UHGV virus genome: UHGV-1730239
Source: a virus
Length of the DNA: 14,195 nt
Strand: one strand, 5' to 3'
The translations under genes were made by a program, and so were the position numbers. Under the pieces are notes generated by a model. The model did not search any database. It worked only from the letters and a program-made list of their open reading frames with translations, and was not told the DNA's origin. Shown here piece by piece: positions 1-10,446 of this stretch. How positions within the stretch are numbered: position 1 is the first letter of the stretch; every line of letters starts with the position of its first letter.

Positions 1-13
1 GCTCTTCCGATCT
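1..13. other. Illumina adapter remnant (GCTCTTCCGATCT); technical sequence marking the contig end
   Basis: Exact match to the reverse complement of the common adapter stem AGATCGGAAGAGC at the very first bases; biological sequence starts at ~14. Confidence 0.85.
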
Positions 14-51
14 ATAAACAGGTTGAAGGTGATGCGCTTAGAATTTTTCAT
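14..51 (-). CDS. Possible N-terminal fragment of a leftward gene running off the contig end (MKNSKRITFNLFI...)
   Basis: Minus-strand ATG at 51..49 preceded by AGGAG (revcomp of 61-65) with a 9-nt spacer; the frame stays open into the adapter. Only 13 codons visible. Confidence 0.2.
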
Positions 52-101
52 TTATAAATACTCCTGAATGCTCTGTGTTAGTTTTAATGTTTCATGCTAA
101 A

Positions 102-138
102 AGCCTCCTTGCGCCAACAGGGAGGCTTTTTTATTTTT
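102..138. terminator. Rho-independent terminator-like hairpin, usable in both directions
   Basis: Stem AGCCTCC (102-108) pairs with GGAGGCT (121-127), extendable to ~10 bp; followed on + by TTTTTTATTTTT and on - by TTTT. Sits ~40 nt downstream of the minus-strand gene 171-350. Confidence 0.6.
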
Positions 139-170
139 AAAGCCATCATATAATTCTCAGTGAAAGTGGA

Positions 171-350
171 TTAACAAACTTGAACGTTAATCTTTATCTG
201 AATTTCGTATTTCTTCATTAGCTTATAGAATCCGCTTCTATCAATTCCTTCCTTCTTAAAGAAATTCTCGCCGCCTCGTTCAGTATCGCCATAAAAGCGT
301 TTAGCAATATCAACAATCATTTCACGAGTAAACTTAACAGGTCTAGCCAT
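171..350 (-). CDS. Small DNA-binding protein with resolvase-type (HTH_7-like) helix-turn-helix, 59 aa
   Basis: ATG at 350 with GAGGA 8 nt upstream; the listed 64-aa ORF begins at an upstream TTG. Protein MARPVKFTREMIVDIAKRFYGD...SGFYKLMKKYEI matches the GRPxxFT...IA...S..FYK..KK pattern of invertase/resolvase C-terminal HTH domains. Paralog of the gene at 3448-3675. Confidence 0.6.
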   Translation of the reverse strand: MARPVKFTREMIVDIAKRFYGDTERGGENFFKKEGIDRSGFYKLMKKYEIQIKINVQVC

Positions 351-449
351 AAGTAGATTCCTCAAATGTGGATTAATAAGGACAATAAAAAGAGCTTTTC
401 GCCCTCGATACTTCTATTTATAAAATGATTTTCAGAAAACCCTGTAAAA

Positions 450-573
450 CCACTGTATATCCGATCAGTGGGAGCACGAATTGCTAAAGAGAAGATTAAT
501 AATTAATCAATTCGTACATTATTCAATCGAAAAAGCACTGTATGTTTAACCAGTGCTGTATGTGTTAACAGTG
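450..573. promoter_or_regulatory. Three copies of an 18-bp operator-like element CTGTAT-N7-CAGTG; the third also fits a LexA-box pattern
   Basis: 453-470 CTGTATATCCGATCAGTG; 538-555 CTGTATGTTTAACCAGTG; 556-573 CTGTATGTGTTAACAGTG, with the last two directly tandem. Copies 1 and 2 are flanked to form CCACTG..CAGTGG and GCACTG..CAGTGC inverted repeats. 556-571 reads CTGT-N8-ACAG. Confidence 0.5.
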
Positions 574-692
574 AATCAGGGGATTTTCAGAAGTGAACAA
601 TCATTTCATGCATGTATTTATACACGAAAAAATCTTGCTTATCATCAATATGGGGATTGTTTCGAAAATTTCAACCCCTATCAACGAGAAAA

Positions 693-737
693 AGTATAAA
701 ATAATCCTTGACAGTTGTCAATACACTTGACCTAAGC
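693..737. promoter_or_regulatory. Divergent promoter/operator: palindrome TTGACA-GT-TGTCAA with a leftward sigma70-like promoter and a rightward TTGACA-N13-TTGACCTAAG motif
   Basis: Palindrome at 708-721. Leftward: -35 TTGACA (721..716), 17-bp spacer, -10 TATACT (698..693), pointing at the operator triplet and gene 171-350. Rightward: bipartite motif 708-737, no convincing -10. Confidence 0.5.
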
Positions 738-918
738 GAGAAATGACTATCAAAATTTTTGTGTGAAAATGGCGGATAACGATTATCAACCTTTATAACC
801 TATTATAGCACGGCGACCTTTTGATCATTCCTTTTAAATCATGCGATTACCGCGATTTTTGGTGATTTTATGATTAAATAATATACAAGAATTTTCTATC
901 AAAATTTTTGATGAAAAC

Positions 919-1038
919 CCTACACTACAAACCTACACTTTAAAGGGATTGGCCTACACTACACTAGCCAGTAAACCTACACTATAACACCCTCAAACCT
1001 ACACTATGAAACCTACACACCTACACTAACCCTACACT
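919..1038 (+). repeat. Iteron-like array of eight direct CCTACACT copies (consensus aAACCTACACT) with irregular 8-23 bp spacing
   Basis: Copies at 919, 932, 953, 976, 998, 1012 (variant CCTACACA), 1020 and 1031, all in the same orientation, immediately after an AT-rich tract (841-915). No ORF covers the array. Confidence 0.8.
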
Positions 1039-1223
1039 TCAATCTCATAAGTGTATGATCTTGAAAGACATTTAACCCCACAGACCATAGAATATAAAAT
1101 TCGAACTAACGTTCTCCTTTTTGCTCGTTTTCTCTCACTACGTTCAAGAAAGATCTCGCAAAAAGAATACGGCGTAGCCGTGCGCGAAGCGCCCATCAAC
1201 ACCTTCTAAGACCTGCAAGCAGG

Positions 1224-1382
1224 ATTCGAAAGGGATTGGATAGTTCGCTTCGCTCACGTTCACGCCTACGGCGTTCACTCGCTTTTGAAAGGATTTTCTT
1301 AGAAAGGGATTTAATACTAGTTACTAACTGATTCTAGTAAACGAACGAAGTGAGTAACAATCACTTTCTAGAAAGGTATTGG
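1224..1382. repeat. Second repeat family: short palindrome followed by AAAGG(G)ATT(GG), inside a GC-rich ORF-free stretch
   Basis: TTCGAAAGGGATTGG (1224-1239), TTTTGAAAGGATTTT (1284-1298), TTCTTAGAAAGGGATTT (1296-1312), TTTCTAGAAAGGTATTGG (1365-1382); an extra copy TTTAAAGGGATTGG at 939-952 lies inside the CCTACACT array. Confidence 0.6.
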
Positions 1383-1383
1383 T

Positions 1384-1412
1384 ATCCCTTCGGGATTGCA
1401 ACCTTCGGTTGC
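1384..1412 (+). other. Two tandem stable hairpins with CTTCGG centres
   Basis: ATCCC-TTC-GGGAT (1384-1396) and GCAACC-TTC-GGTTGC (1398-1412), back to back with no U-tract; candidate RNA processing/stability elements or protein-binding palindromes. Confidence 0.5.
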
Positions 1413-1611
1413 TAAATTGCTTCCTGATTATTATTTCTCCAAAAGAAAGATTCTTATATTCTAAAGATACTTCTTCGTTTTGATGATGATTTAATCAAAA
1501 CTATGAAGGAGGGCTATGCCCGACTGAATACAATCACCTTTCATAATAACAAGAATTTTCTCTTTATAAATAATATTAGATTGATTCACTTTCTTTTAGA
1601 GGATTTCCACT

Positions 1612-2079
1612 ATGAACCATAAAATGACTACCACTACTCCTTTCATCCTGTTAGGTTTTGATGCTGATAGCTTCCACAATGACAAGTTAATGAAGATGTT
1701 CCGTGAACGTGGTTATAACATCCTTTTCAATTCCGATGAATCCCATTTCTCTAGTGCATGGTATGCGTTTTGCCGTAATAAGAAGCCGACCATTGTTGTT
1801 AACGTCTTCACCGATGAAGATCGCTTAAAGTACCAGAATCTACCAGCAATTATTGTTCGTGATGATCTGCCGTTTGAAGTCCGTTCCGGTGACATTGATC
1901 TGGGTAGCTTCGTTACTGTCTATGAACTGGATGAAGCAATGTTTAACTACGGCAAAGAAACCGCTCAGGAAGCCCCAGAACAAGATGAAGAAGATGAGGA
2001 AGACGAAGACTACGCTCCAATCTGTTTTTCTTCTCAGAATGGCTTCTACGGTTACGATGAAGGCTTAGATATGCTGTAA
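1612..2079 (+). CDS. Hypothetical strongly acidic early protein, 155 aa
   Basis: ATG at 1612 with AGAGGA 8 nt upstream; coherent codon usage; C-terminal tract EAPEQDEEDEEDEDY. By eye roughly 35 D/E against 13 K/R. Confidence 0.7.
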   Translation: MNHKMTTTTPFILLGFDADSFHNDKLMKMFRERGYNILFNSDESHFSSAWYAFCRNKKPTIVVNVFTDEDRLKYQNLPAIIVRDDLPFEVRSGDIDLGSFVTVYELDEAMFNYGKETAQEAPEQDEEDEEDEDYAPICFSSQNGFYGYDEGLDML

Positions 2080-2180
2080 GTTAGGTCAACCCTTTGGCGT
2101 CTTGTCAAGGTGTATTGACAAAAATTTCTGACTTTTTATGATTATCGCACTTGACAACTTTGATTATATTTGACCTAGAT
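2080..2180. promoter_or_regulatory. Promoter/operator region with inverted repeat TTGTCAA-N6-TTGACAA, a sigma70-like promoter, and two further TTGACA-N13-TTGACCTAR motifs
   Basis: Inverted repeat 2102-2121; -35 TTGACA (2115-2120), 16-bp spacer, -10 TATGAT (2137-2142). Bipartite motif on + at 2151-2180 (TTGACA-N13-TTGACCTAGA) and on - at 2108..2080 (TTGACA-N13-TTGACCTAAC). Confidence 0.55.
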
Positions 2181-2199
2181 TTGTAAAGAGGATGTAAGC

Positions 2200-2379
2200 A
2201 TGAAAACCTTTACCCGTGAACGTGAACCAGGAGTGATCGAAACCCGCCGTCGTCGTTATGTTAAGGGCTTTGGTTGGGCTACCGAAACCGTGGATGTGGA
2301 ATATAAAGACGAATCCAAAGCACCGAAACCATCACCTTTGCAAATGGCTTTACGCGGATTGTGTGCTAACAACAAATAA
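2200..2379 (+). CDS. Small basic hypothetical protein, 59 aa (MKTFTREREPGVIETRRRRYVKGFGW...); not in the supplied ORF track
   Basis: ATG at 2200 with AGAGGA (2187-2192) 7 nt upstream, ~55 nt downstream of the promoter; host-like codon usage (cgt, ccg, gaa, acc); stop TAA 2377-2379. Confidence 0.55.
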   Translation: MKTFTREREPGVIETRRRRYVKGFGWATETVDVEYKDESKAPKPSPLQMALRGLCANNK

Positions 2380-2402
2380 GAAATAGCTCTTATAAATAAA
2401 AT

Positions 2403-2426
2403 TGTTCCGGTGGTGATGCCGGAACA
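2403..2426 (+). other. Intergenic hairpin without U-tract between the 59-aa gene and the Rha-family gene
   Basis: TGTTCCGG (2403-2410) pairs with CCGGAACA (2419-2426) around an 8-nt loop; followed by GGGAGG, not a T-run. Possible processing site or attenuator. Confidence 0.4.
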
Positions 2427-2470
2427 GGGAGGATTAAATCGCAAAACCGTTAATTAAGGGGAATTTTACT

Positions 2471-3307
2471 ATGAATACTGTTACTGCTATGACTACTAAA
2501 ACTGCTTCCGTGTCTCTGGTTGTTGATAACACCAAACCGCTGACCATGTCTACCCGTCAGATTGCTGAATTAACCGGAAAGAGTCATGATCACGTTTTGC
2601 GTGATTTTCGTAATATGATTGCTTCTATCCAAAAAGGTAGCAAACTGGTCGGAGGAGATCTCACCAATTTTGGCGAGATTGGTTTTTATACAGAAACCAC
2701 GTACAAAGATAAACAAAACCGCAATCAGCGCATGTATGAACTGGATGAAGATCTCTGTAATACACTGGTTATGGGATACGATGCACCGCTTCGCTTCAAA
2801 ATTGCTAAAGAATGGCGTTTGATGAAAGAAGGTAAAGCTAATGTTCCGGTTAATCCATATGAACACTTTGAAGAAACCGATTGGATCGAACTGGCATTAG
2901 AGAAAACCCGTGAAAATAAACGTCTGGTTGAATTACATGTTCGTAAAGCTATCGACACTCACAGCTTAACCCGTCTTCTGGGCGAAAAACGAGGCTCAAC
3001 GAAGGTACAAATGATTCTGAAAGGATTGTGTGCGGCTGGTGTTCTTGAGCGTCGTCTGGATGCTTCTGGTAAGCCTAACGGCTATGATCTGCTTCCTCCT
3101 GGTTATATGTTCGCTCGTATGTCTGCACACGGTCAGATCGAGTTCACTGCTGATGCTATCCCGCATCTCGTAAAACTCGGATTGCTTGAAGAAGAAAAGG
3201 CCGCAACTTTGAAATTGCCACAGCCGAACAACTCACGAGCAATCGTCAATAATACTGCTTTGCTGATTCGTCAGAATGCCGGATCGCTGGAACACTTCGG
3301 ACTGTAA
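2471..3307 (+). CDS. Rha-family phage regulatory protein (antirepressor-like), 278 aa
   Basis: ATG at 2471 with AAGGGGA upstream. N-terminal segment LTMSTRQIAELTGKSHDHVLRDFRNMI matches the Rha/ORF6N motif (IAELTGK.H..VLRD.R); ends with tandem stops TAA-TAA. Confidence 0.8.
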   Translation: MNTVTAMTTKTASVSLVVDNTKPLTMSTRQIAELTGKSHDHVLRDFRNMIASIQKGSKLVGGDLTNFGEIGFYTETTYKDKQNRNQRMYELDEDLCNTLVMGYDAPLRFKIAKEWRLMKEGKANVPVNPYEHFEETDWIELALEKTRENKRLVELHVRKAIDTHSLTRLLGEKRGSTKVQMILKGLCAAGVLERRLDASGKPNGYDLLPPGYMFARMSAHGQIEFTADAIPHLVKLGLLEEEKAATLKLPQPNNSRAIVNNTALLIRQNAGSLEHFGL

Positions 3308-3315
3308 TAATTTTT

Positions 3316-3341
3316 GCCCCTGAAATTCAGGGGCTTTTTTG
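3316..3341 (+). terminator. Rho-independent terminator after the Rha-family gene
   Basis: GCCCCTG (3316-3322), 5-nt loop, CAGGGGC (3328-3334), then TTTTTT (3335-3340). Confidence 0.8.
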
Positions 3342-3412
3342 TATCTACATCACGCGAATTTTCGCGCCATCTTCCACCAACCCGCCGATGGCGTTTTGGT
3401 CACCTTACAGAT

Positions 3413-3439
3413 ATAAAAAAAGCCACTCCGAAGAGTGGC
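3413..3439 (-). terminator. Rho-independent terminator for the leftward two-gene operon
   Basis: On the minus strand: GCCACTC, UUCG loop, GAGUGGC, then a 7-8 U run (A-run 3414-3421 on +); 8 nt beyond the stop of gene 3448-3675. Confidence 0.8.
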
Positions 3440-3447
3440 AAAGAGAA

Positions 3448-3675
3448 TCAAAAACCTGTTGCTTCTACGATCTGACCGTCGCCAATCTGAACATAGAATT
3501 TAATATCTAACTTCTTGATATTTTTATAGAATTGAGCTACCGATATAGCGTGCTCACTAAGAATCTGTTCTTTCGCTTCCTTCCCGCGATCCGCTGTATA
3601 GTAAGCGTAGGCAATATCAGCCATTTGTTCTTGAGTGAAACGTGCCGGACGACCGCGAGTAGCTTTAATAGTCAT
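3448..3675 (-). CDS. Small DNA-binding protein with resolvase-type (HTH_7-like) helix-turn-helix, 75 aa
   Basis: ATG at 3675 with GGAGGA 7 nt upstream; the listed ORF starts further upstream without an SD. Protein MTIKATRGRPARFTQEQMADIAYAYY...ISVAQFYKNIKKLDI carries the GRPxxFT.EQ...IA...S..FYK motif. Paralog of gene 171-350. Confidence 0.65.
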   Translation of the reverse strand: MTIKATRGRPARFTQEQMADIAYAYYTADRGKEAKEQILSEHAISVAQFYKNIKKLDIKFYVQIGDGQIVEATGF

Positions 3676-3710
3676 AGTTACTTCCTCCAAATTAAAGTGA
3701 ATGTTCACCT

Positions 3711-4313
3711 TTATTTAGAGGACTTACATTTTATCGGAAAAAGTTCTCCATCGTCAACTGACATAAAAAACTCTGCCTTAATCCCGTACTTCTTCAACCG
3801 TGAATAATATGTACCCCGACTTATATCAACCTTGCGAAGCACTTCAAAGAAGGATTTAGGATCGTTGTAATAGTGGCTGTACTTCACGTTAGCGAGTTCT
3901 ACAAACAATTCCCTTGTATCACCATAGCCTTTCTTGAAAGCCACGTTACGATAGCGTGTAATAGCGTGATTTAGTCTCTTCTGTTTCAACACTTCCCTGA
4001 TCGGTGTCCACTGCAACCGATAGATCGGACCGTCATCCACTCGATAATAACGCTTGATATCAAAATCAAACCATTCACGGACTCTCTGGAACTCTGTATG
4101 TGATGTTCTATGCTTCTTAAAGAAGTTGTGAACGTCTGTATAACCATTATCACGGTAAAATTCTATTAAAATCTCTTTCGCTTCCTCACGGCTAAACCCA
4201 GATGTTGTGTAATCGGTCTTTAAGTGCTTATGTTTTACTGGCAAACGATATTCATGATCGGTACAAGACAAGGCTAATTCTAATTCATCTCTTTCTTGCT
4301 GATTAATTAGCAT
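3711..4313 (-). CDS. Hypothetical protein, 200 aa, with C-terminal HTH-like segment ([13 protein letters not shown]); first gene of the leftward operon
   Basis: ATG at 4313 with AAGGGGGG upstream; its stop sits 35 nt before the next start. The C-terminal motif resembles the recognition helices of the two small HTH proteins. Function not recognised. Confidence 0.6.
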
Positions 4314-4400
4314 ACACCCCCCTTAAATCTTAATACCCGTATTTATCAGAAAATCAACAATTTAATAAATACCTTCATATTTCGTAATGAGGGTAATTAC

Positions 4401-6308
4401 ATGAAACTGATTTCGAACAAGGCCAAATTAAAAAAGATTCTTAAAAATGCCGCAAAATATATCACTCCACCGCCTAAACTCCTTCCGTCTGAATGGTGCG
4501 AAGCGAATATGGTGCTGGTAGATGGTCCTCAAGCTGGGGATAAAGTTAAATTGTTGTCATTCCAAAAAGGCATGATTGATGCACCTTTCCTTGAGAACAA
4601 GAAAAAGTATGTCCTGATGACCAGTGCACAGATCGGAAAGACTACCATCCTGAACGGTATCCTGTTTAACCAGATGGCTAACGATCCATGCAATATGATT
4701 ATCGGACAATCAACCGCTAAAGAAATGTCTCAATATCTCGCTGGTAAGATCCGACCGTCTATCGAAGCATGTGATGCATTAAAAGACGTTGTTACAGACA
4801 AGAATGATCGCAATGCGGTTAACAACAATAACCAACTCCAGCTAAAAACGAATCACTTCCTGTACATGGTATCGCTAACCAGTCCATCGACCCTACGTGG
4901 TAAGACCGCAAAGGTTGGATTGCTTGACGAAATCGATGCTGCTACAGCCTCAGAAGAAGGTGATCCGGTGGCACTGGCTGCTAACCGTTTAACTACCTTT
5001 GGCGATGAAGGCCGATTAGTCGTATCCAGTACCCCGACCAGTAAGCTGGGAAGCATTAACCAGCAATGGTTATCAAGCGATATGCGTATGTTTTTTGTTC
5101 CGTGTCCTCATTGCGGTAGACACCAGGTGATCGAGTGGGAAAACGTTCAATTTGAATGGCGTAACATCGATGGTAAGAACTTGCCCGATCCTGATACCGC
5201 TCGTTATATTTGCCCCCACTGTAAGCAATCATGGACAGAAGGGGAACGAATCAGGGCAGTAGCGCAAGGCGAGTGGAGAGCAACCCGTGAAAGTGAAGTA
5301 GCCGGATTCTGGATCAGCCGTTTGTATTCACCTTTCAGCACGATCCGCGCTTGTGTGGTTGATTTTAGCCATGCGTGGCAATCCTTTGATTTACAATCAT
5401 TTTATAACACCGTGTTAGGCAAGGTATACGACGATCAGGACACGGCAGTAGAAGCAAATGAACTGGAACAACTCAAAACAGATGTTTCTATCGAGAATAT
5501 CCCTGATGACGTGATTTTCTTGTGCTCAGGAATTGACCAGCAATTGGACCGCGCAGAATCTACCATCTTAGGTGTAGCGAAAGATAAGGTTTACATTCTG
5601 GATCACCGCAGCTTTTACGATCATAACTGTGAACGATATGAATCACCTGTTTGGGATCGCCTGGTTAACTTCAAGAAAACCAAATTCTATAACGTTAATG
5701 GTGAACGTGTACCAATGCTCGCCAGCTTCCTTGATACATCGAACGGTCGATTCACTCAAGCCGGATACCGTATTTGCGGCAAGTGGAAGAACCTACACGC
5801 GATCAAAGGTAGTTCATCTGGTAATGCTCCAGTGATTCCGGTTAAACCTACCCGCACAGGTGGTCATGAATTGCTTATGCTGGGTGTTAACGTTGGTAAA
5901 TCCGCTGTTCGTGAAATGCTGGTTAGAAACCTGAAAGATAATCCTCATATTGGCTTAGAAATATCAGAAACCGTTCCTGATGATTATCTCGATCAGCTTT
6001 TGAGTGAATCCATCAAGCGTACTACTACTGGCGTGCGTTGGGTGAAAAATCCAGGTAGTACCCGAAACGAGGCTCTCGACTGTCTGGTTTATAGCTATGC
6101 TGCTTCTCGCTACGTCCTTTCAAAAATGTCATGGGATAAACTCATTGCAATGAAAGATAGTTTGAACCGTGAACCAGAAGAATCCGTAGAATCTCCTAAA
6201 TCGCAATCTAACGAGCAAATCGAAGAAACTAAGCCAATCACACGACCGCAACGTCAAAACATCGCCAGACGCCCAAATAGAGGCCGTAGCTGGATAACAT
6301 CGTTCTAA
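4401..6308 (+). CDS. terL: Terminase large subunit, lambda gpA family, 635 aa
   Basis: ATG at 4401 with GAGGG upstream. Walker A-like TSAQIGKTT and Walker B-like GLLDEID; the segments GIDQQLDR and RNEALDC(L)VY match what I recall of lambda gpA (GIDSQLDR, RNEALDCFVY); CxxC pairs (CPHCG, CPHCK). Confidence 0.9.
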
Positions 6309-8442: not shown

Positions 8443-10446
8443 ATGCTTAAATTTCGCCGCGATCTTAACGGTTACGGTGGAGTTATTAATGAAGGGCATA
8501 ACGATCAATACGAATTTGAAATTGCTTTCTCAAGTACACAGCCTTATCAGCGCCAATTTTGGGATGAGCAAAATCAAGAAATGGTGGTATTAGATGAAAT
8601 TCTGGTACATACACCGGAAGCGGTTGATCTGTCTCGTCTGAATAATAACGCTCCGTTGCTGTTCAATCACAATTTCGATAATCACATTGGTGTAGTTTGT
8701 AACGCTCGAATCGATGCGGATAACGTAGGTCGTGCTCTGGTTAAGTTCTCCAAGCATGGGACTTTGGCTAATGATATTCGTAATAAAGTCATTGAAGGTA
8801 CGATGGAAAAAATTTCGGTCGGCTATGACATTAAAGAGTATCACATCGACTACGCTAAATCGCAACTCATTGTTTCTAAATGGATTCCTCACGAGATTTC
8901 ATGGGTGTCGGTGCCCGCAGACGATACGGTCGGTTTAAATCGCTCTCTAAATACTATCACAGTTAATTTGGAGGCTAAACGCGATATGACTAAAGAACAA
9001 ATCGAAGAAATCAAAGAAGAACAAGAACCCGCTCAGGTTGAAGAAACTCCGGTAGAAGAAAATAAAGAATCGGAAGTAGAAGAAACTCAAGAGCGCCAAG
9101 TTGAAGAGAATGAAGAAAATGAAAATCTCGAAGACGGAAAAGACGCTGAACATCCTGAAAGTGTTGATGATGATAGTTCAACTGTTCGGGAAGCAGAAGA
9201 AGTAAAAGAAGAACGTGAAGCCGCGCCGGTTGAAGAAGAAAAAATCGAAGAAGTGGCTGAACGTTCCGAAGAAGACGAATTAGAAATTCGCGAGATCGCT
9301 CGCGAGCTAAATATTAACGACGAAGAATTAGAACGCGCATTGGCAGTTAAAGACATGACGCCGGAAGCATTCCGCACTAAGGCACTAAATAATCTCGTCA
9401 ATTCTCAACGTAATAACGAACAACAAATTAAGGACTCTAAAATGGAAAAAACTTTTGACCTGAATGCTGTATTTCGCTCTCTGATCGATGGTGACACTCT
9501 GGGTGCTCATGAAGCTGAATATTCCGCGATGGCTGCTACTGCAACTGTACAGCGCGGTCGTGCTGCTCGTAGTGGCTCTGTATTCGTTCCGGCTGCTGCT
9601 CTGCGTGCTGCTGCTGCTGGTAACACTAAAGCTACTCTGGAAGCTGTAACTGATGAAAAACTGCTGACTGAATCCTATGTAGAAATGCTGATGCCTCAGT
9701 CCGTTCTGGGTCGTCTGGGTGTGACTGTCCTGTCTGGCCTGAATAGCCCGATCGCAGTACCAAAAATGACATCTTCTTGTGTTGACGGTTTCGGTTTCGT
9801 TTCGGAGAACGGCGAGGCACCAGAAAATAAAGCAGGTTTCGCAAACGTGAAAATGGCTCCTAAGACTTTCGCAGGGGGCAACCCAATTTCGCGCCTCAGC
9901 CTCAAAACCGTTCCGGGTATCGCAACCCTGATCACTGATCACATGAACAAAGCTGTTCGCATCAAACTGGAACAACTGGTGCTGTCTGATAAAGAAAACG
10001 CTAACGGTCCGAAAGGTCTGATTAAACATCTGGTTGATGCAAGCCGTGTTGAAAAGAAAGCTGCTTTCACCTACAAAGACTTCCTGAAAGAAATCGCAGC
10101 ACTGACTGATGCTGGCGTTCCGGCACAGTCCATCAAATTTGCCATGAGCGGTGCAACTGCTGCTGAACTGGAATCTACCCTGAAAGATAACGGCGTTTCC
10201 GGTTATATCATCGAAAACGGCAAACTGGCTGGTTACGACGTAGTTACTTCTGGTGTTATTCCGGCTGGCCACATCGTTCTGGGTGACTTCTCCGCGATTA
10301 CTATCGGTGAGTGGGGCGGTCTTGAGGTAGATCTGGACGATTCAACCTACCGAGCACAGGGCGCTATCGTTCCGCGTATCTGGGTAGACCTGGACTTCAC
10401 CGTAGTTCAGCCGGAAGCTCTGAAAGTTCTTCATATCTCTGAATGA
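8443..10446 (+). CDS. Single-ORF fusion of prohead protease (HK97 gp4-like), acidic scaffold-like linker and HK97-fold major capsid protein, 667 aa
   Basis: ATG at 8443 with AAAGGTGA upstream. N-terminal ~170 aa carry prohead-protease motifs (LLFNHN..HIGVV, ISVGYD, ISWVSVPADD). Residues ~180-330 are an E/D/K-rich predicted coiled coil. The C-terminal ~335 aa look like an HK97-type capsid protein ending in ...VQPEALKVLHISE. Single TGA stop. Confidence 0.85.
   Translation: MLKFRRDLNGYGGVINEGHNDQYEFEIAFSSTQPYQRQFWDEQNQEMVVLDEILVHTPEAVDLSRLNNNAPLLFNHNFDNHIGVVCNARIDADNVGRALVKFSKHGTLANDIRNKVIEGTMEKISVGYDIKEYHIDYAKSQLIVSKWIPHEISWVSVPADDTVGLNRSLNTITVNLEAKRDMTKEQIEEIKEEQEPAQVEETPVEENKESEVEETQERQVEENEENENLEDGKDAEHPESVDDDSSTVREAEEVKEEREAAPVEEEKIEEVAERSEEDELEIREIARELNINDEELERALAVKDMTPEAFRTKALNNLVNSQRNNEQQIKDSKMEKTFDLNAVFRSLIDGDTLGAHEAEYSAMAATATVQRGRAARSGSVFVPAAALRAAAAGNTKATLEAVTDEKLLTESYVEMLMPQSVLGRLGVTVLSGLNSPIAVPKMTSSCVDGFGFVSENGEAPENKAGFANVKMAPKTFAGGNPISRLSLKTVPGIATLITDHMNKAVRIKLEQLVLSDKENANGPKGLIKHLVDASRVEKKAAFTYKDFLKEIAALTDAGVPAQSIKFAMSGATAAELESTLKDNGVSGYIIENGKLAGYDVVTSGVIPAGHIVLGDFSAITIGEWGGLEVDLDDSTYRAQGAIVPRIWVDLDFTVVQPEALKVLHISE
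9442..10446 (+). CDS. Candidate nested product: major capsid protein alone, from an internal in-frame start (334 aa)
   Basis: In-frame ATG at 9442 with AAGGA 7 nt upstream; from here codon usage switches by eye to the highly-expressed style (ctg, cgt, ggt, gct, tcc). A second in-frame ATG at 8986 has GGAGG 11 nt upstream. Confidence 0.4.
   Translation: MEKTFDLNAVFRSLIDGDTLGAHEAEYSAMAATATVQRGRAARSGSVFVPAAALRAAAAGNTKATLEAVTDEKLLTESYVEMLMPQSVLGRLGVTVLSGLNSPIAVPKMTSSCVDGFGFVSENGEAPENKAGFANVKMAPKTFAGGNPISRLSLKTVPGIATLITDHMNKAVRIKLEQLVLSDKENANGPKGLIKHLVDASRVEKKAAFTYKDFLKEIAALTDAGVPAQSIKFAMSGATAAELESTLKDNGVSGYIIENGKLAGYDVVTSGVIPAGHIVLGDFSAITIGEWGGLEVDLDDSTYRAQGAIVPRIWVDLDFTVVQPEALKVLHISE

What the first reader, a model, noticed from the sequence alone, without database searches (positions are those of the whole stretch)
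708..2180. Conserved bipartite motif TTGACA-N13-TTGACCTAR present three times in the early region
Three instances share identical spacing: 708-737 (+, TTGACCTAAG), 2151-2180 (+, TTGACCTAGA) and 2108..2080 (-, TTGACCTAAC). Two are embedded in TTGACA-based palindromes (708-721 and 2102-2121). Identical 13-bp spacing with a conserved 9-bp second box is unlikely by chance in ~2 kb of AT-rich DNA. It suggests a dimeric regulator site or a phage-specific promoter class, and instance 1 points into the ORF-free region, so it may drive a non-coding transcript.
Basis: seen in the sequence. Interest (0 to 1): 0.6.

Follow-up and report, generated by a model that had tools for sequence, protein, structure and literature searches.

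The report
Bipartite regulatory motif in prophage switch
A 27-bp two-part DNA motif occurs exactly three times, on and beside the two strong early promoters of an uncharacterised E. coli prophage. It is most likely the site through which a phage protein controls those promoters, which makes it a real but fairly ordinary kind of feature.

Summary
TTGACA-N13-TTGACCTA occurs exactly three times in the window (708-734 +, 2108-2082 -, 2151-2177 +), against 0.13 expected by chance. The window is part of a 35.8-kb E. coli prophage inserted in hicB, and that prophage has no further conserved copy. In about 25 related prophages both boxes and the 13-bp spacing stay fixed while the spacer sequence drifts.

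Site 1 straddles the -35 of a near-consensus leftward sigma-70 promoter, P_L. Sites 2 and 3 form an inverted pair bracketing a near-consensus rightward promoter, P_R, at about -67..-41 and +3..+29.

Box 1 is a consensus -35 hexamer, and box 2 puts a TG at the extended -10 position. The hexamer that follows (CCTAAG, CCTAAC, CCTAGA) lacks the essential A-11 and T-7, so these are not self-sufficient promoters. Distant relatives keep TTGACA plus TG at all three positions but carry box 2 only in some lineages. At site 1 they have an extended -10 promoter-like sequence instead.

Best reading (about 0.4): these are oriented bipartite operators built on promoter-like scaffolds. A phage regulator binds them, possibly the 200-aa protein with two tandem HTH-like domains.

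Main rival (about 0.3): they are factor-dependent or non-productive RNA polymerase docking sites.

This is a new member of a known kind, of modest interest.

The parts
708..734 (+). Site 1: box 1 TTGACA (708-713), N13, box 2 TTGACCTA (727-734). The -35 hexamer of P_L (721..716, - strand) lies inside the N13, so the two boxes sit at about -22..-27 and -41..-48 of P_L.
   Evidence: conserved in window-lineage relatives
2082..2108 (-). Site 2: box 1 at 2108..2103 and box 2 at 2089..2082. It starts 2 nt after the stop codon of the 155-aa ORF, lies at about -41..-67 of P_R, and points away from P_R.
   Evidence: also present in distant relatives L031, L032, L033 (TTGACCTC) and L037
2151..2177 (+). 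Site 3: box 1 at 2151-2156 and box 2 at 2170-2177, about +3..+29 of P_R, in the 5' UTR of the first rightward gene (ATG at 2200).
   Evidence: present in L031 and L033; only box 1 is kept in other lineages
693..721 (-). P_L: leftward near-consensus sigma-70 promoter, TTGACA-17-TATACT, 11/12 matches.
   Evidence: prediction only, no transcript data
2115..2142 (+). P_R: rightward near-consensus sigma-70 promoter, TTGACA-16-TATGAT, 11/12 matches. The inferred transcription start is about 2149.
   Evidence: conserved in all relatives
3711..4313 (-). p200: a 200-aa ORFan with two tandem three-helix + beta-hairpin (HTH-like) domains. It is the candidate binder of the bipartite motif, unproven.
3448..3675 (-). 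p86/p75: a single-domain paralogue of the p200 domain, co-transcribed downstream of p200.
171..350 (-). p59L: a single-domain paralogue and the first ORF of the leftward operon, in a Cro-like position.
   Evidence: annotated CDS in NZ_CP024232.1

Best explanation
The three copies are oriented, bipartite operator sites of the prophage's early-control (immunity/switch) region. Each is a direct repeat of TTGAC, about two helical turns apart (19 bp start to start), laid over a promoter-like scaffold of consensus -35 plus TG.

A sequence-specific phage protein binds box 1 and box 2 together. This masks the -35 of P_L (site 1) and clamps P_R from both sides (site 2 upstream, site 3 over +3..+29). 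Both otherwise constitutive early promoters are thereby held off or throttled.

The most plausible binder is p200. It carries two similar but non-identical HTH-like domains in tandem, matching two similar but non-identical boxes. The single-domain paralogues p59L and p86 may compete at single TTGAC elements.

Shown here: the motif, its conservation, its placement relative to predicted promoters, its lack of a usable -10, and the tandem-domain architecture of p200.

Inferred: that a protein binds it, that binding is repressive, and that the protein is p200.
For: (1) Non-random and confined. There are three exact copies against 0.13 expected. No other conserved copy exists in the 35.8-kb prophage. 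In IMG/VR only this phage family has multi-copy contigs.

(2) Selective constraint. Across 16-27 related loci, 0/18 box-1 columns and 5/24 box-2 columns vary, against 22/39 N13 columns and 70/150 flank columns (Fisher p = 4e-5 and 3e-5). The N13 length never changes.

(3) Placement. Site 1 brackets the P_L -35. Sites 2 and 3 are an inverted pair around P_R.

(4) Not autonomous promoters. The hexamers after TGn are CCTAAG, CCTAAC and CCTAGA. None of the three sites, read from its TTGACA box, passes the scan. In relative L031, box 2 of site 3 abuts the Shine-Dalgarno sequence, so a transcript started there would lack it.

(5) Box 2 repeats the TTGAC of box 1. A two-headed or tandem binder explains this; a -10 element does not.

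(7) p200 is the only early protein present in every relative locus that is uniformly 90-96% identical across the lineage in which the motif is fixed.

(8) Precedent: a monomeric phage repressor that reads an asymmetric site with two domains, at promoters and inside transcription units (PMC9283540).
Against: No binding data exist.

In distant relatives (p200 42-74% identical), the presence of box 2 does not track p200 similarity or its putative recognition helices, nor any other early protein in the loci.

The TTGACA-N13/14-TG geometry is conserved at all three positions even in lineages without box 2. This is exactly the sigma-70 -35/extended -10 geometry, so RNA polymerase itself may be a reader.

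The distance between sites 2 and 3 varies from 42 to 44 bp, which argues against rigid cooperative phasing.

Three LexA-box-like sequences downstream of P_L suggest that part of the repression may come from the host.
Confidence: 0.4

Rival explanations
1. The sites are RNA polymerase docking sites, either a factor-dependent promoter class or non-productive pseudo-promoters. Sigma-70 region 4 reads TTGACA and region 3 reads the TG 14 bp downstream. Box 2 then replaces the -10 and is read by a phage or host factor that allows opening. Alternatively nothing opens the DNA, and bound polymerase simply occludes or buffers the overlapping P_L and adjacent P_R.
For: Box 1 is the perfect -35 hexamer in all three sites.

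Box 2 puts TG exactly at -15/-14 for a 17-bp spacer.

All lineages keep TTGACA-N13/14-TG at the three positions whether or not box 2 is present.

At the site 1 position the relatives have an extended -10 promoter-like sequence, TGCTATAAG, TGCTAGAAG and similar. It aligns base for base with the window's TGACCTAAG.

Other promoters of the family use TTGACA with an extended -10: TTGACA-N14-TGCTATACT and TTGACA-N15-TGGTATAAT in L033.

The lack of covariation with any phage protein fits a host reader.
Against: The hexamers lack A-11 and T-7, which sigma-70 needs for DNA melting (established knowledge). No activator is known to substitute for a -10.

No sigma-like or polymerase gene was detected by Pfam among the early-region, head and prophage-end ORFs scanned.

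The identical ACCTA and the repeat of TTGAC in box 2 are not explained by polymerase contacts.

Site 2 has no gene to express. Site 3 in L031 would start downstream of the Shine-Dalgarno sequence.
Confidence: 0.3
2. The sites bind a host transcription factor that reads TTGAC-type half-sites, for example an FNR/CRP-family or TetR-type protein, coupling the phage switch to host physiology.
For: TTGAC-N4-GTCAA at 708-721 resembles the FNR/FixK-type box TTGAT-N4-ATCAA (from my own knowledge). That palindrome is kept with a variable N4 in most relatives.

TTGACC is a RutR half-site (from my own knowledge).

Box 2 does not covary with phage proteins.
Against: No known E. coli factor has a TTGACA-N13-TTGACCTA direct-repeat site.

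Sites 2 and 3 lack the FNR-type dyad.

The RutR partner half-site is absent.

No host factor site was tested with a matrix here.
Confidence: 0.08
3. The box 2 sequence has no function of its own. The three copies are by-products of promoter duplication or gene conversion among -35/spacer regions.
For: P_L and P_R share an identical 12-mer, GTGTATTGACAA. This shows sequence exchange or common descent among these promoter regions.
Against: The flanks and N13 of the three sites are unrelated.

The boxes are significantly more conserved than spacers and flanks.

Box 2 is retained at site 2 in lineages whose surrounding sequence has diverged to about 72-77% identity.
Confidence: 0.05

Closest known systems
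Asymmetric operator/'stoperator' sites of cluster A mycobacteriophages (L5 gp71; TipsytheTRex repressor, PDB 7tz1)
   Different: The cluster A site is a contiguous 13-mer present in more than 20 copies genome-wide. Here there is a 27-bp split site with a 13-bp variable gap and only 3 copies. There is no sequence homology between the proteins, and the host phylum differs.
Phage P2 C repressor operator (two direct repeats about two helical turns apart at the early promoter Pe)
   Same: Both have direct-repeat half-sites roughly two turns apart that overlap an early promoter of a temperate coliphage (from my own knowledge, not checked here).
   Different: The sequence is different. P2 has one operator pair at face-to-face promoters, and the P2 C protein has no detectable similarity to the proteins here.
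Lambda CII-dependent promoters (pRE, pI, paQ; TTGC-N6-TTGC)
   Same: Both have three copies per genome and a direct repeat tied to the -35 region. In both, one copy points antisense into the end of a gene, as site 2 does (from my own knowledge).
   Different: CII sites flank a poor -35 and keep a usable -10. Here the -35 is perfect and the -10 is missing. The repeat period is 19 bp rather than 10, and no CII-like protein was found.
Extended -10 sigma-70 promoters (TTGACA-N14-TGnTATAAT)
   Same: The geometry of TTGACA and TG is identical. Orthologous positions in relatives carry an extended -10 promoter-like sequence.
   Different: The -10 hexamer is CCTA(A/G)N without A-11 and T-7, and box 2 is sequence-specific beyond the TG.
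MarA/SoxS/Rob-type monomeric two-HTH activators with asymmetric bipartite boxes
   Different: The half-sites there are one helical turn apart, not two. p200 shows no AraC-family sequence signature.

Membership tests
Sigma-70 promoter | -35 hexamer close to TTGACA | tested here: met
   6/6 match in all three sites
Sigma-70 promoter | -10 hexamer 16-18 bp downstream with A at position 2 and T at position 6 | tested here: not met
   The hexamers are CCTAAG, CCTAAC and CCTAGA at 17 bp. None of the three, read from its TTGACA box, is reported by the scan, while P_L and P_R score 11/12. At 19 bp the hexamers are TAAGCG, TAACTT and TAGATT, which is inconsistent.
Sigma-70 promoter | extended -10 TG at -15/-14 | tested here: met
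   TTGACA-N14-TG in all three sites and in all lineages
Sigma-70 promoter | transcript start and a sensible downstream product | not testable with these tools
   No transcript data. Site 2 faces the 3' end of an ORF. In L031, site 3 would start beyond the Shine-Dalgarno sequence.
Temperate-phage repressor operator | several copies confined to the early control region, overlapping or flanking early promoters | tested here: met
   Three copies, at P_L and P_R only. None is conserved elsewhere in the prophage.
Temperate-phage repressor operator | recognition boxes more conserved than spacer and flanks | tested here: met
   5/42 variable columns in the boxes against 22/39 in N13 and 70/150 in flanks
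Temperate-phage repressor operator | a cognate DNA-binding protein encoded nearby whose specificity tracks the operator | tested here: inconclusive
   p200 is co-conserved within the lineage and has tandem HTH-like domains. There is no covariation across distant relatives.
Temperate-phage repressor operator | demonstrated protein binding and repression | not testable with these tools
   Needs EMSA or footprinting and reporter assays.
Cluster A mycobacteriophage stoperator system | many (more than 20) oriented copies across the genome | tested here: not met
   Only three copies in 35.8 kb
Cluster A mycobacteriophage stoperator system | gp71-family repressor | tested here: not met
   [not shown]
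Lambda CII-type activated promoter | TTGC-N6-TTGC flanking a weak -35 | tested here: not met
   Read directly from the sequence: the -35 is consensus, and the repeat is TTGAC with a 19-bp period.
MerR-type promoter | 19-20 bp spacer containing a dyad operator | tested here: not met
   Sites 2 and 3 have no shared dyad in the spacer.

The most novel reading that the evidence does not exclude
The motif defines a promoter class in which RNA polymerase is docked by a consensus -35 plus TG, while the -10 is replaced by TGACCTA. That element would be read by a phage factor: a sigma-region-3/4 mimic or sigma-appropriating protein built from the ORFan tandem HTH-like domain family (p200, p86, p59L). 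The same 27-bp element would then work as an operator or a promoter depending on that factor.
Probability: 0.1. Interest if true: 0.75.

Novelty: new member of a known kind. Interest (0 to 1): 0.35.

Why it matters
The motif marks the control region of a prophage family found in about 1% of complete E. coli genomes, and in Salmonella and Proteus. This family has no cultured relative in GenBank phage records. Its whole early module is made of proteins without family assignment.

Identifying the operators and their binder would define this family's immunity system. If p200 is the binder, it would add a second example of a two-domain protein reading an asymmetric split operator.

Practically, the motif together with P_L and P_R gives clear targets for reporter and footprinting experiments.

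Tried and rejected
Alternative sigma factors. I compared box 2 by eye with the sigma-32, sigma-E, sigma-28 and sigma-54 consensus sequences, from my own knowledge. None fits.

Box 2 as the -35 of a shifted promoter. This works only for site 1 (TTGACC-18-CAAAAT, 9/12), not for sites 2 and 3.

RNA-level pairing between site 2 and site 3. The boxes are complementary in a read-through RNA, but the two N13 segments are not. Site 1 is also unpaired.

An invertible promoter segment flanked by sites 2 and 3. The 42-44 bp segment is too short, and P_R has the same orientation in every relative.

p155, the only ORF between P_L and P_R, as the repressor. Its fold is P-loop-kinase-like without a P-loop, followed by a disordered acidic tail. 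It is only 57-96% conserved where the motif is fixed.

Covariation of box 2 with p200 helices or any other early protein. None was found.

A fourth site in the tail-tip gene. It is not conserved.

Rfam scan of window 1-4500. Nothing meaningful.

Literature search for the box sequence. It returned only primers.

Search for hicB-integrated prophages in the literature. Nothing relevant.

Genome-contig scan with the terminase. No relatives.

Pfam, NCBIfam, PHROGs and PDB sequence searches for p200, p86, p59L and p155. No family.

Foldseek search of the whole p200 model against PDB. Uninformative.

Full report
**What is in the sequence**

The pattern TTGACA-N13-TTGACCTA occurs at 708-734 (+), 2108-2082 (-) and 2151-2177 (+). 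Allowing two mismatches gives no additional match. The expectation from 200 dinucleotide shuffles is 0.13, and no shuffle reached three. TTGACCTA occurs nowhere else in the window. Five of the window's six TTGACA hexamers lie in the two short regions 708-721 and 2103-2156.

Each consists of box 1 plus the -35 hexamer of a divergent, near-consensus sigma-70 promoter:
- P_L on the minus strand: -35 at 721..716, 17-bp spacer, TATACT at 698..693, 11/12 matches.
- P_R on the plus strand: -35 at 2115-2120, 16-bp spacer, TATGAT at 2137-2142, 11/12 matches.

None of the three motif copies, read from its TTGACA box, is reported by that scan. The hexamers that follow at 17 bp are CCTAAG, CCTAAC and CCTAGA. 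They lack the A at position 2 and the T at position 6.

**Where the window comes from**

Bases 14-4400 are 100% identical to the chromosome of E. coli O6:H16 2014EL-1346-6. Fifty-eight of 5,426 complete E. coli genomes carry a relative, always chromosomal. The first 13 bases of the window are an Illumina adapter tail.

The element is a 35.8-kb prophage inserted in hicB, with a large serine recombinase at one end. It has:
- a GpA-type terminase,
- a lambda-type portal,
- a protease-capsid fusion,
- a Rha-family protein.

Almost every early gene is an ORFan. There is no close relative among GenBank phages. The best terminase match there is 44% identical.

Across the whole prophage the motif has only the three copies and nothing with one or two mismatches. 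A looser fourth match, TTGACA-N14-TGACC inside the tail-tip gene, is lost in relatives that are 80-82% identical there. I treat it as chance.

Among the 120 stretches it returned, most were single hits consistent with chance. Every contig with two or three hits belongs to this family, apart from one duplicated-gene artefact.

**Conservation within the lineage**

About 25 related IMG/VR contigs were fetched through the 155-aa ORF and the Rha protein. Nearly all carry the motif at the same places.

Counting columns over 16-27 loci per site:

| Region | Variable columns |
|---|---|
| Box 1 | 0 of 18 |
| Box 2 | 5 of 24 (one at 7 of 16 loci, the rest singletons) |
| N13 spacer | 22 of 39 |
| Flanks | 70 of 150 |

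Boxes differ from N13 with p = 4e-5 and from flanks with p = 3e-5. The spacer length is always 13. Natural variants include TTGATCTA, TTGACCTC and TTGACCTG, so TTGACCT is the core. The distance between sites 2 and 3 varies from 42 to 44 bp.

**Geometry relative to the promoters**

Take +1 of P_L at about 686 and +1 of P_R at about 2149. These are inferred from the -10 positions.
- Site 1 has its boxes at about -22..-27 and -41..-48 of P_L. The P_L -35 hexamer therefore lies inside the N13.
- Site 2 lies at about -41..-67 of P_R and points away from it.
- Site 3 lies at +3..+29 in the 5' UTR of the first rightward gene.

Sites 2 and 3 are thus an inverted pair bracketing P_R. P_L and P_R also share the 12-mer GTGTATTGACAA.

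**Distant relatives**

Homologues of the 200-aa protein p200, at 42-74% identity, led to ten syntenic prophages in Salmonella, Proteus and E. coli. Their control regions are informative.
- Box 1 is positionally conserved almost everywhere, at all three sites, and is followed 13-14 bp later by TG.
- Box 2 at site 2 is present in L031, L032, L037 and, as TTGACCTC, in L033.
- Box 2 at site 3 is present in L031 and L033.
- Box 2 at site 1 is present in no distant relative.

At the site 1 position most of the others carry TTGnnn-N14-TGCTA(T/G)nnG. This is an extended -10 promoter-like sequence pointing into the ORF-free region, although its hexamer ends in G or A rather than T at -7. L034 aligns without gaps: TGC-TAGAAG there, TGA-CCTAAG in the window. 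So in the window's lineage the T-12 and A-11 of a promoter-like -10 hexamer have been overwritten by the same 8-mer found at sites 2 and 3.

In L031, box 2 of site 3 runs straight into the Shine-Dalgarno sequence (TTGACCTAGAGGA, 8 nt, ATG). A transcript started from such a 'promoter' would lack its ribosome-binding site.

**Candidate readers**

A tblastn matrix compares the early proteins across the lineage in which the motif is invariant:

| Protein | Identity range |
|---|---|
| p200 (window 3711..4313, minus strand) | 90-96%, in every locus |
| Rha | 50-92% |
| p155 | 57-96% |
| p59L | 35-100% |
| p86 | 55-95% |

p331 and p80 are also well conserved (93-100% and 84-100%) but fall within only about ten of the loci.

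p59L aligns to two separate parts of p200, residues 40-87 and 133-186 (E = 2e-4 and 2e-5). p86 aligns to the first part (3e-4). p59L and p86 align to each other (2e-9). The two halves of p200 align weakly (0.019).

No Pfam, NCBIfam, PHROG or PDB sequence match exists for any of the three paralogues.

A protein with two similar but non-identical DNA-reading domains is a natural match for two similar but non-identical boxes in direct repeat. There is also a precedent for a monomeric two-domain phage repressor on an asymmetric site, at promoters and within transcription units (PMC9283540).

Against this, across the distant relatives the presence of box 2 does not follow p200 identity, its putative recognition helices, or any other early protein.

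p155, the only ORF between P_L and P_R, has a P-loop-kinase-like fold without a P-loop, plus a disordered acidic tail. It is not an obvious DNA binder.

**Interpretation**

The boxes are under selection. They sit on and around the only two strong early promoters. They are confined to the switch region. They cannot act as self-sufficient sigma-70 promoters. Box 2 also repeats the TTGAC of box 1 at a fixed distance of about two turns.

The best-supported reading is therefore an oriented bipartite operator, bound by a phage regulator with p200 as the leading but unproven candidate. It would repress P_L by covering its -35, and P_R by occupying its upstream edge and its +3..+29 region (confidence about 0.4).

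The strongest rival, at about 0.3, is that RNA polymerase itself reads TTGACA and TG. That geometry is conserved family-wide even without box 2. The sites would then be factor-dependent or deliberately non-productive promoters.

A host factor (about 0.08) or no function (about 0.05) is less likely.

**Bottom line**

The feature is a regulatory motif of a familiar kind, in an unstudied prophage family whose regulators are all novel proteins. Interest is modest unless the polymerase-docking or sigma-mimic reading proves true.

Noticed in passing
window 1-13: GCTCTTCCGATCT is the tail of an Illumina TruSeq adapter. The match to the E. coli chromosome starts at base 14. The contig end is therefore an artefact or a read-defined end, not phage sequence.
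   Followed up: partly
window 453-571: There are three CTGTAT-N7-CAG sequences: CTGTATATCCGATCAG, CTGTATGTTTAACCAG, and the perfect LexA-type CTGTATGTGTTAACAG. All lie in the roughly 340-nt leader between P_L and the first leftward ORF. Chance expectation is 0.09, and they are conserved in the Salmonella relative L031. They could be SOS boxes giving direct LexA control. Each also extends to CACTG-N10-CAGTG, so they could instead be RNA hairpins in the leader.
   Followed up: partly
window 390-406 (-) and 99-130: Intrinsic-terminator-like hairpins sit about 40 nt upstream of the p59L start, and between p59L and the next leftward ORF. The first is conserved in relatives. Either P_L makes a roughly 300-nt non-coding RNA, or the leftward operon needs antitermination.
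   Followed up: no
window 474-491: The 18-mer GCACGAATTGCTAAAGAG in the P_L leader recurs once or twice, nearly unchanged, in distant relatives L031-L033, L036 and L039. Its function is unknown.
   Followed up: no
window 916-1042: About nine iteron-like copies of (A)ACCTACACT lie in the ORF-free region. They are preceded by two copies of CTATCAAAATTTTTG (746-761 and 895-910), which look like IHF sites. This may be a replication origin. This central stretch is lineage-specific.
   Followed up: partly
window 1424-1504: This stretch is about 78% identical to intergenic stretches present several times in RB49-like T4-type phages (with coordinates corrected by +399). It includes a promoter-like TTGATG-16-TATGAA upstream of p155. 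It resembles the mobile PeSL early-promoter cassettes described for RB49/phi1 (PMC2839356, PMC4122927).
   Followed up: partly
window 1100-1450: The ORF-free region folds better than shuffles (z = -2.5). It contains two adjacent UUCG-tetraloop hairpins at about 1383-1413. Conserved islands at 1279-1337 and 1366-1408 are shared with distant relatives. This may be a structured non-coding RNA.
   Followed up: partly
window 171-350, 3448-3675, 3711-4313 (all -): Three paralogous ORFans share a roughly 50-aa HTH-like domain (GRPxxFT...FYxxxKKxxI). The domain is present twice in p200. It seems restricted to this prophage family: there are no Pfam, NCBIfam or PHROG hits, and homologues occur only in E. 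coli, Shigella, Salmonella and Proteus.
   Followed up: yes
[not shown]
   Followed up: partly
L029 8441-44241 (NZ_CP024232.1 4616440-4652240): The whole prophage is 35.8 kb and splits the antitoxin gene hicB. It carries a large serine recombinase, an IS1 insertion and an LprI-like lipoprotein gene at the other end. No recognisable repressor, replication protein or small terminase is annotated.
   Followed up: partly
window 8443-10446: A single 667-aa ORF fuses a prohead protease (Peptidase_S78), an acidic linker and an HK97-type major capsid protein.
   Followed up: no
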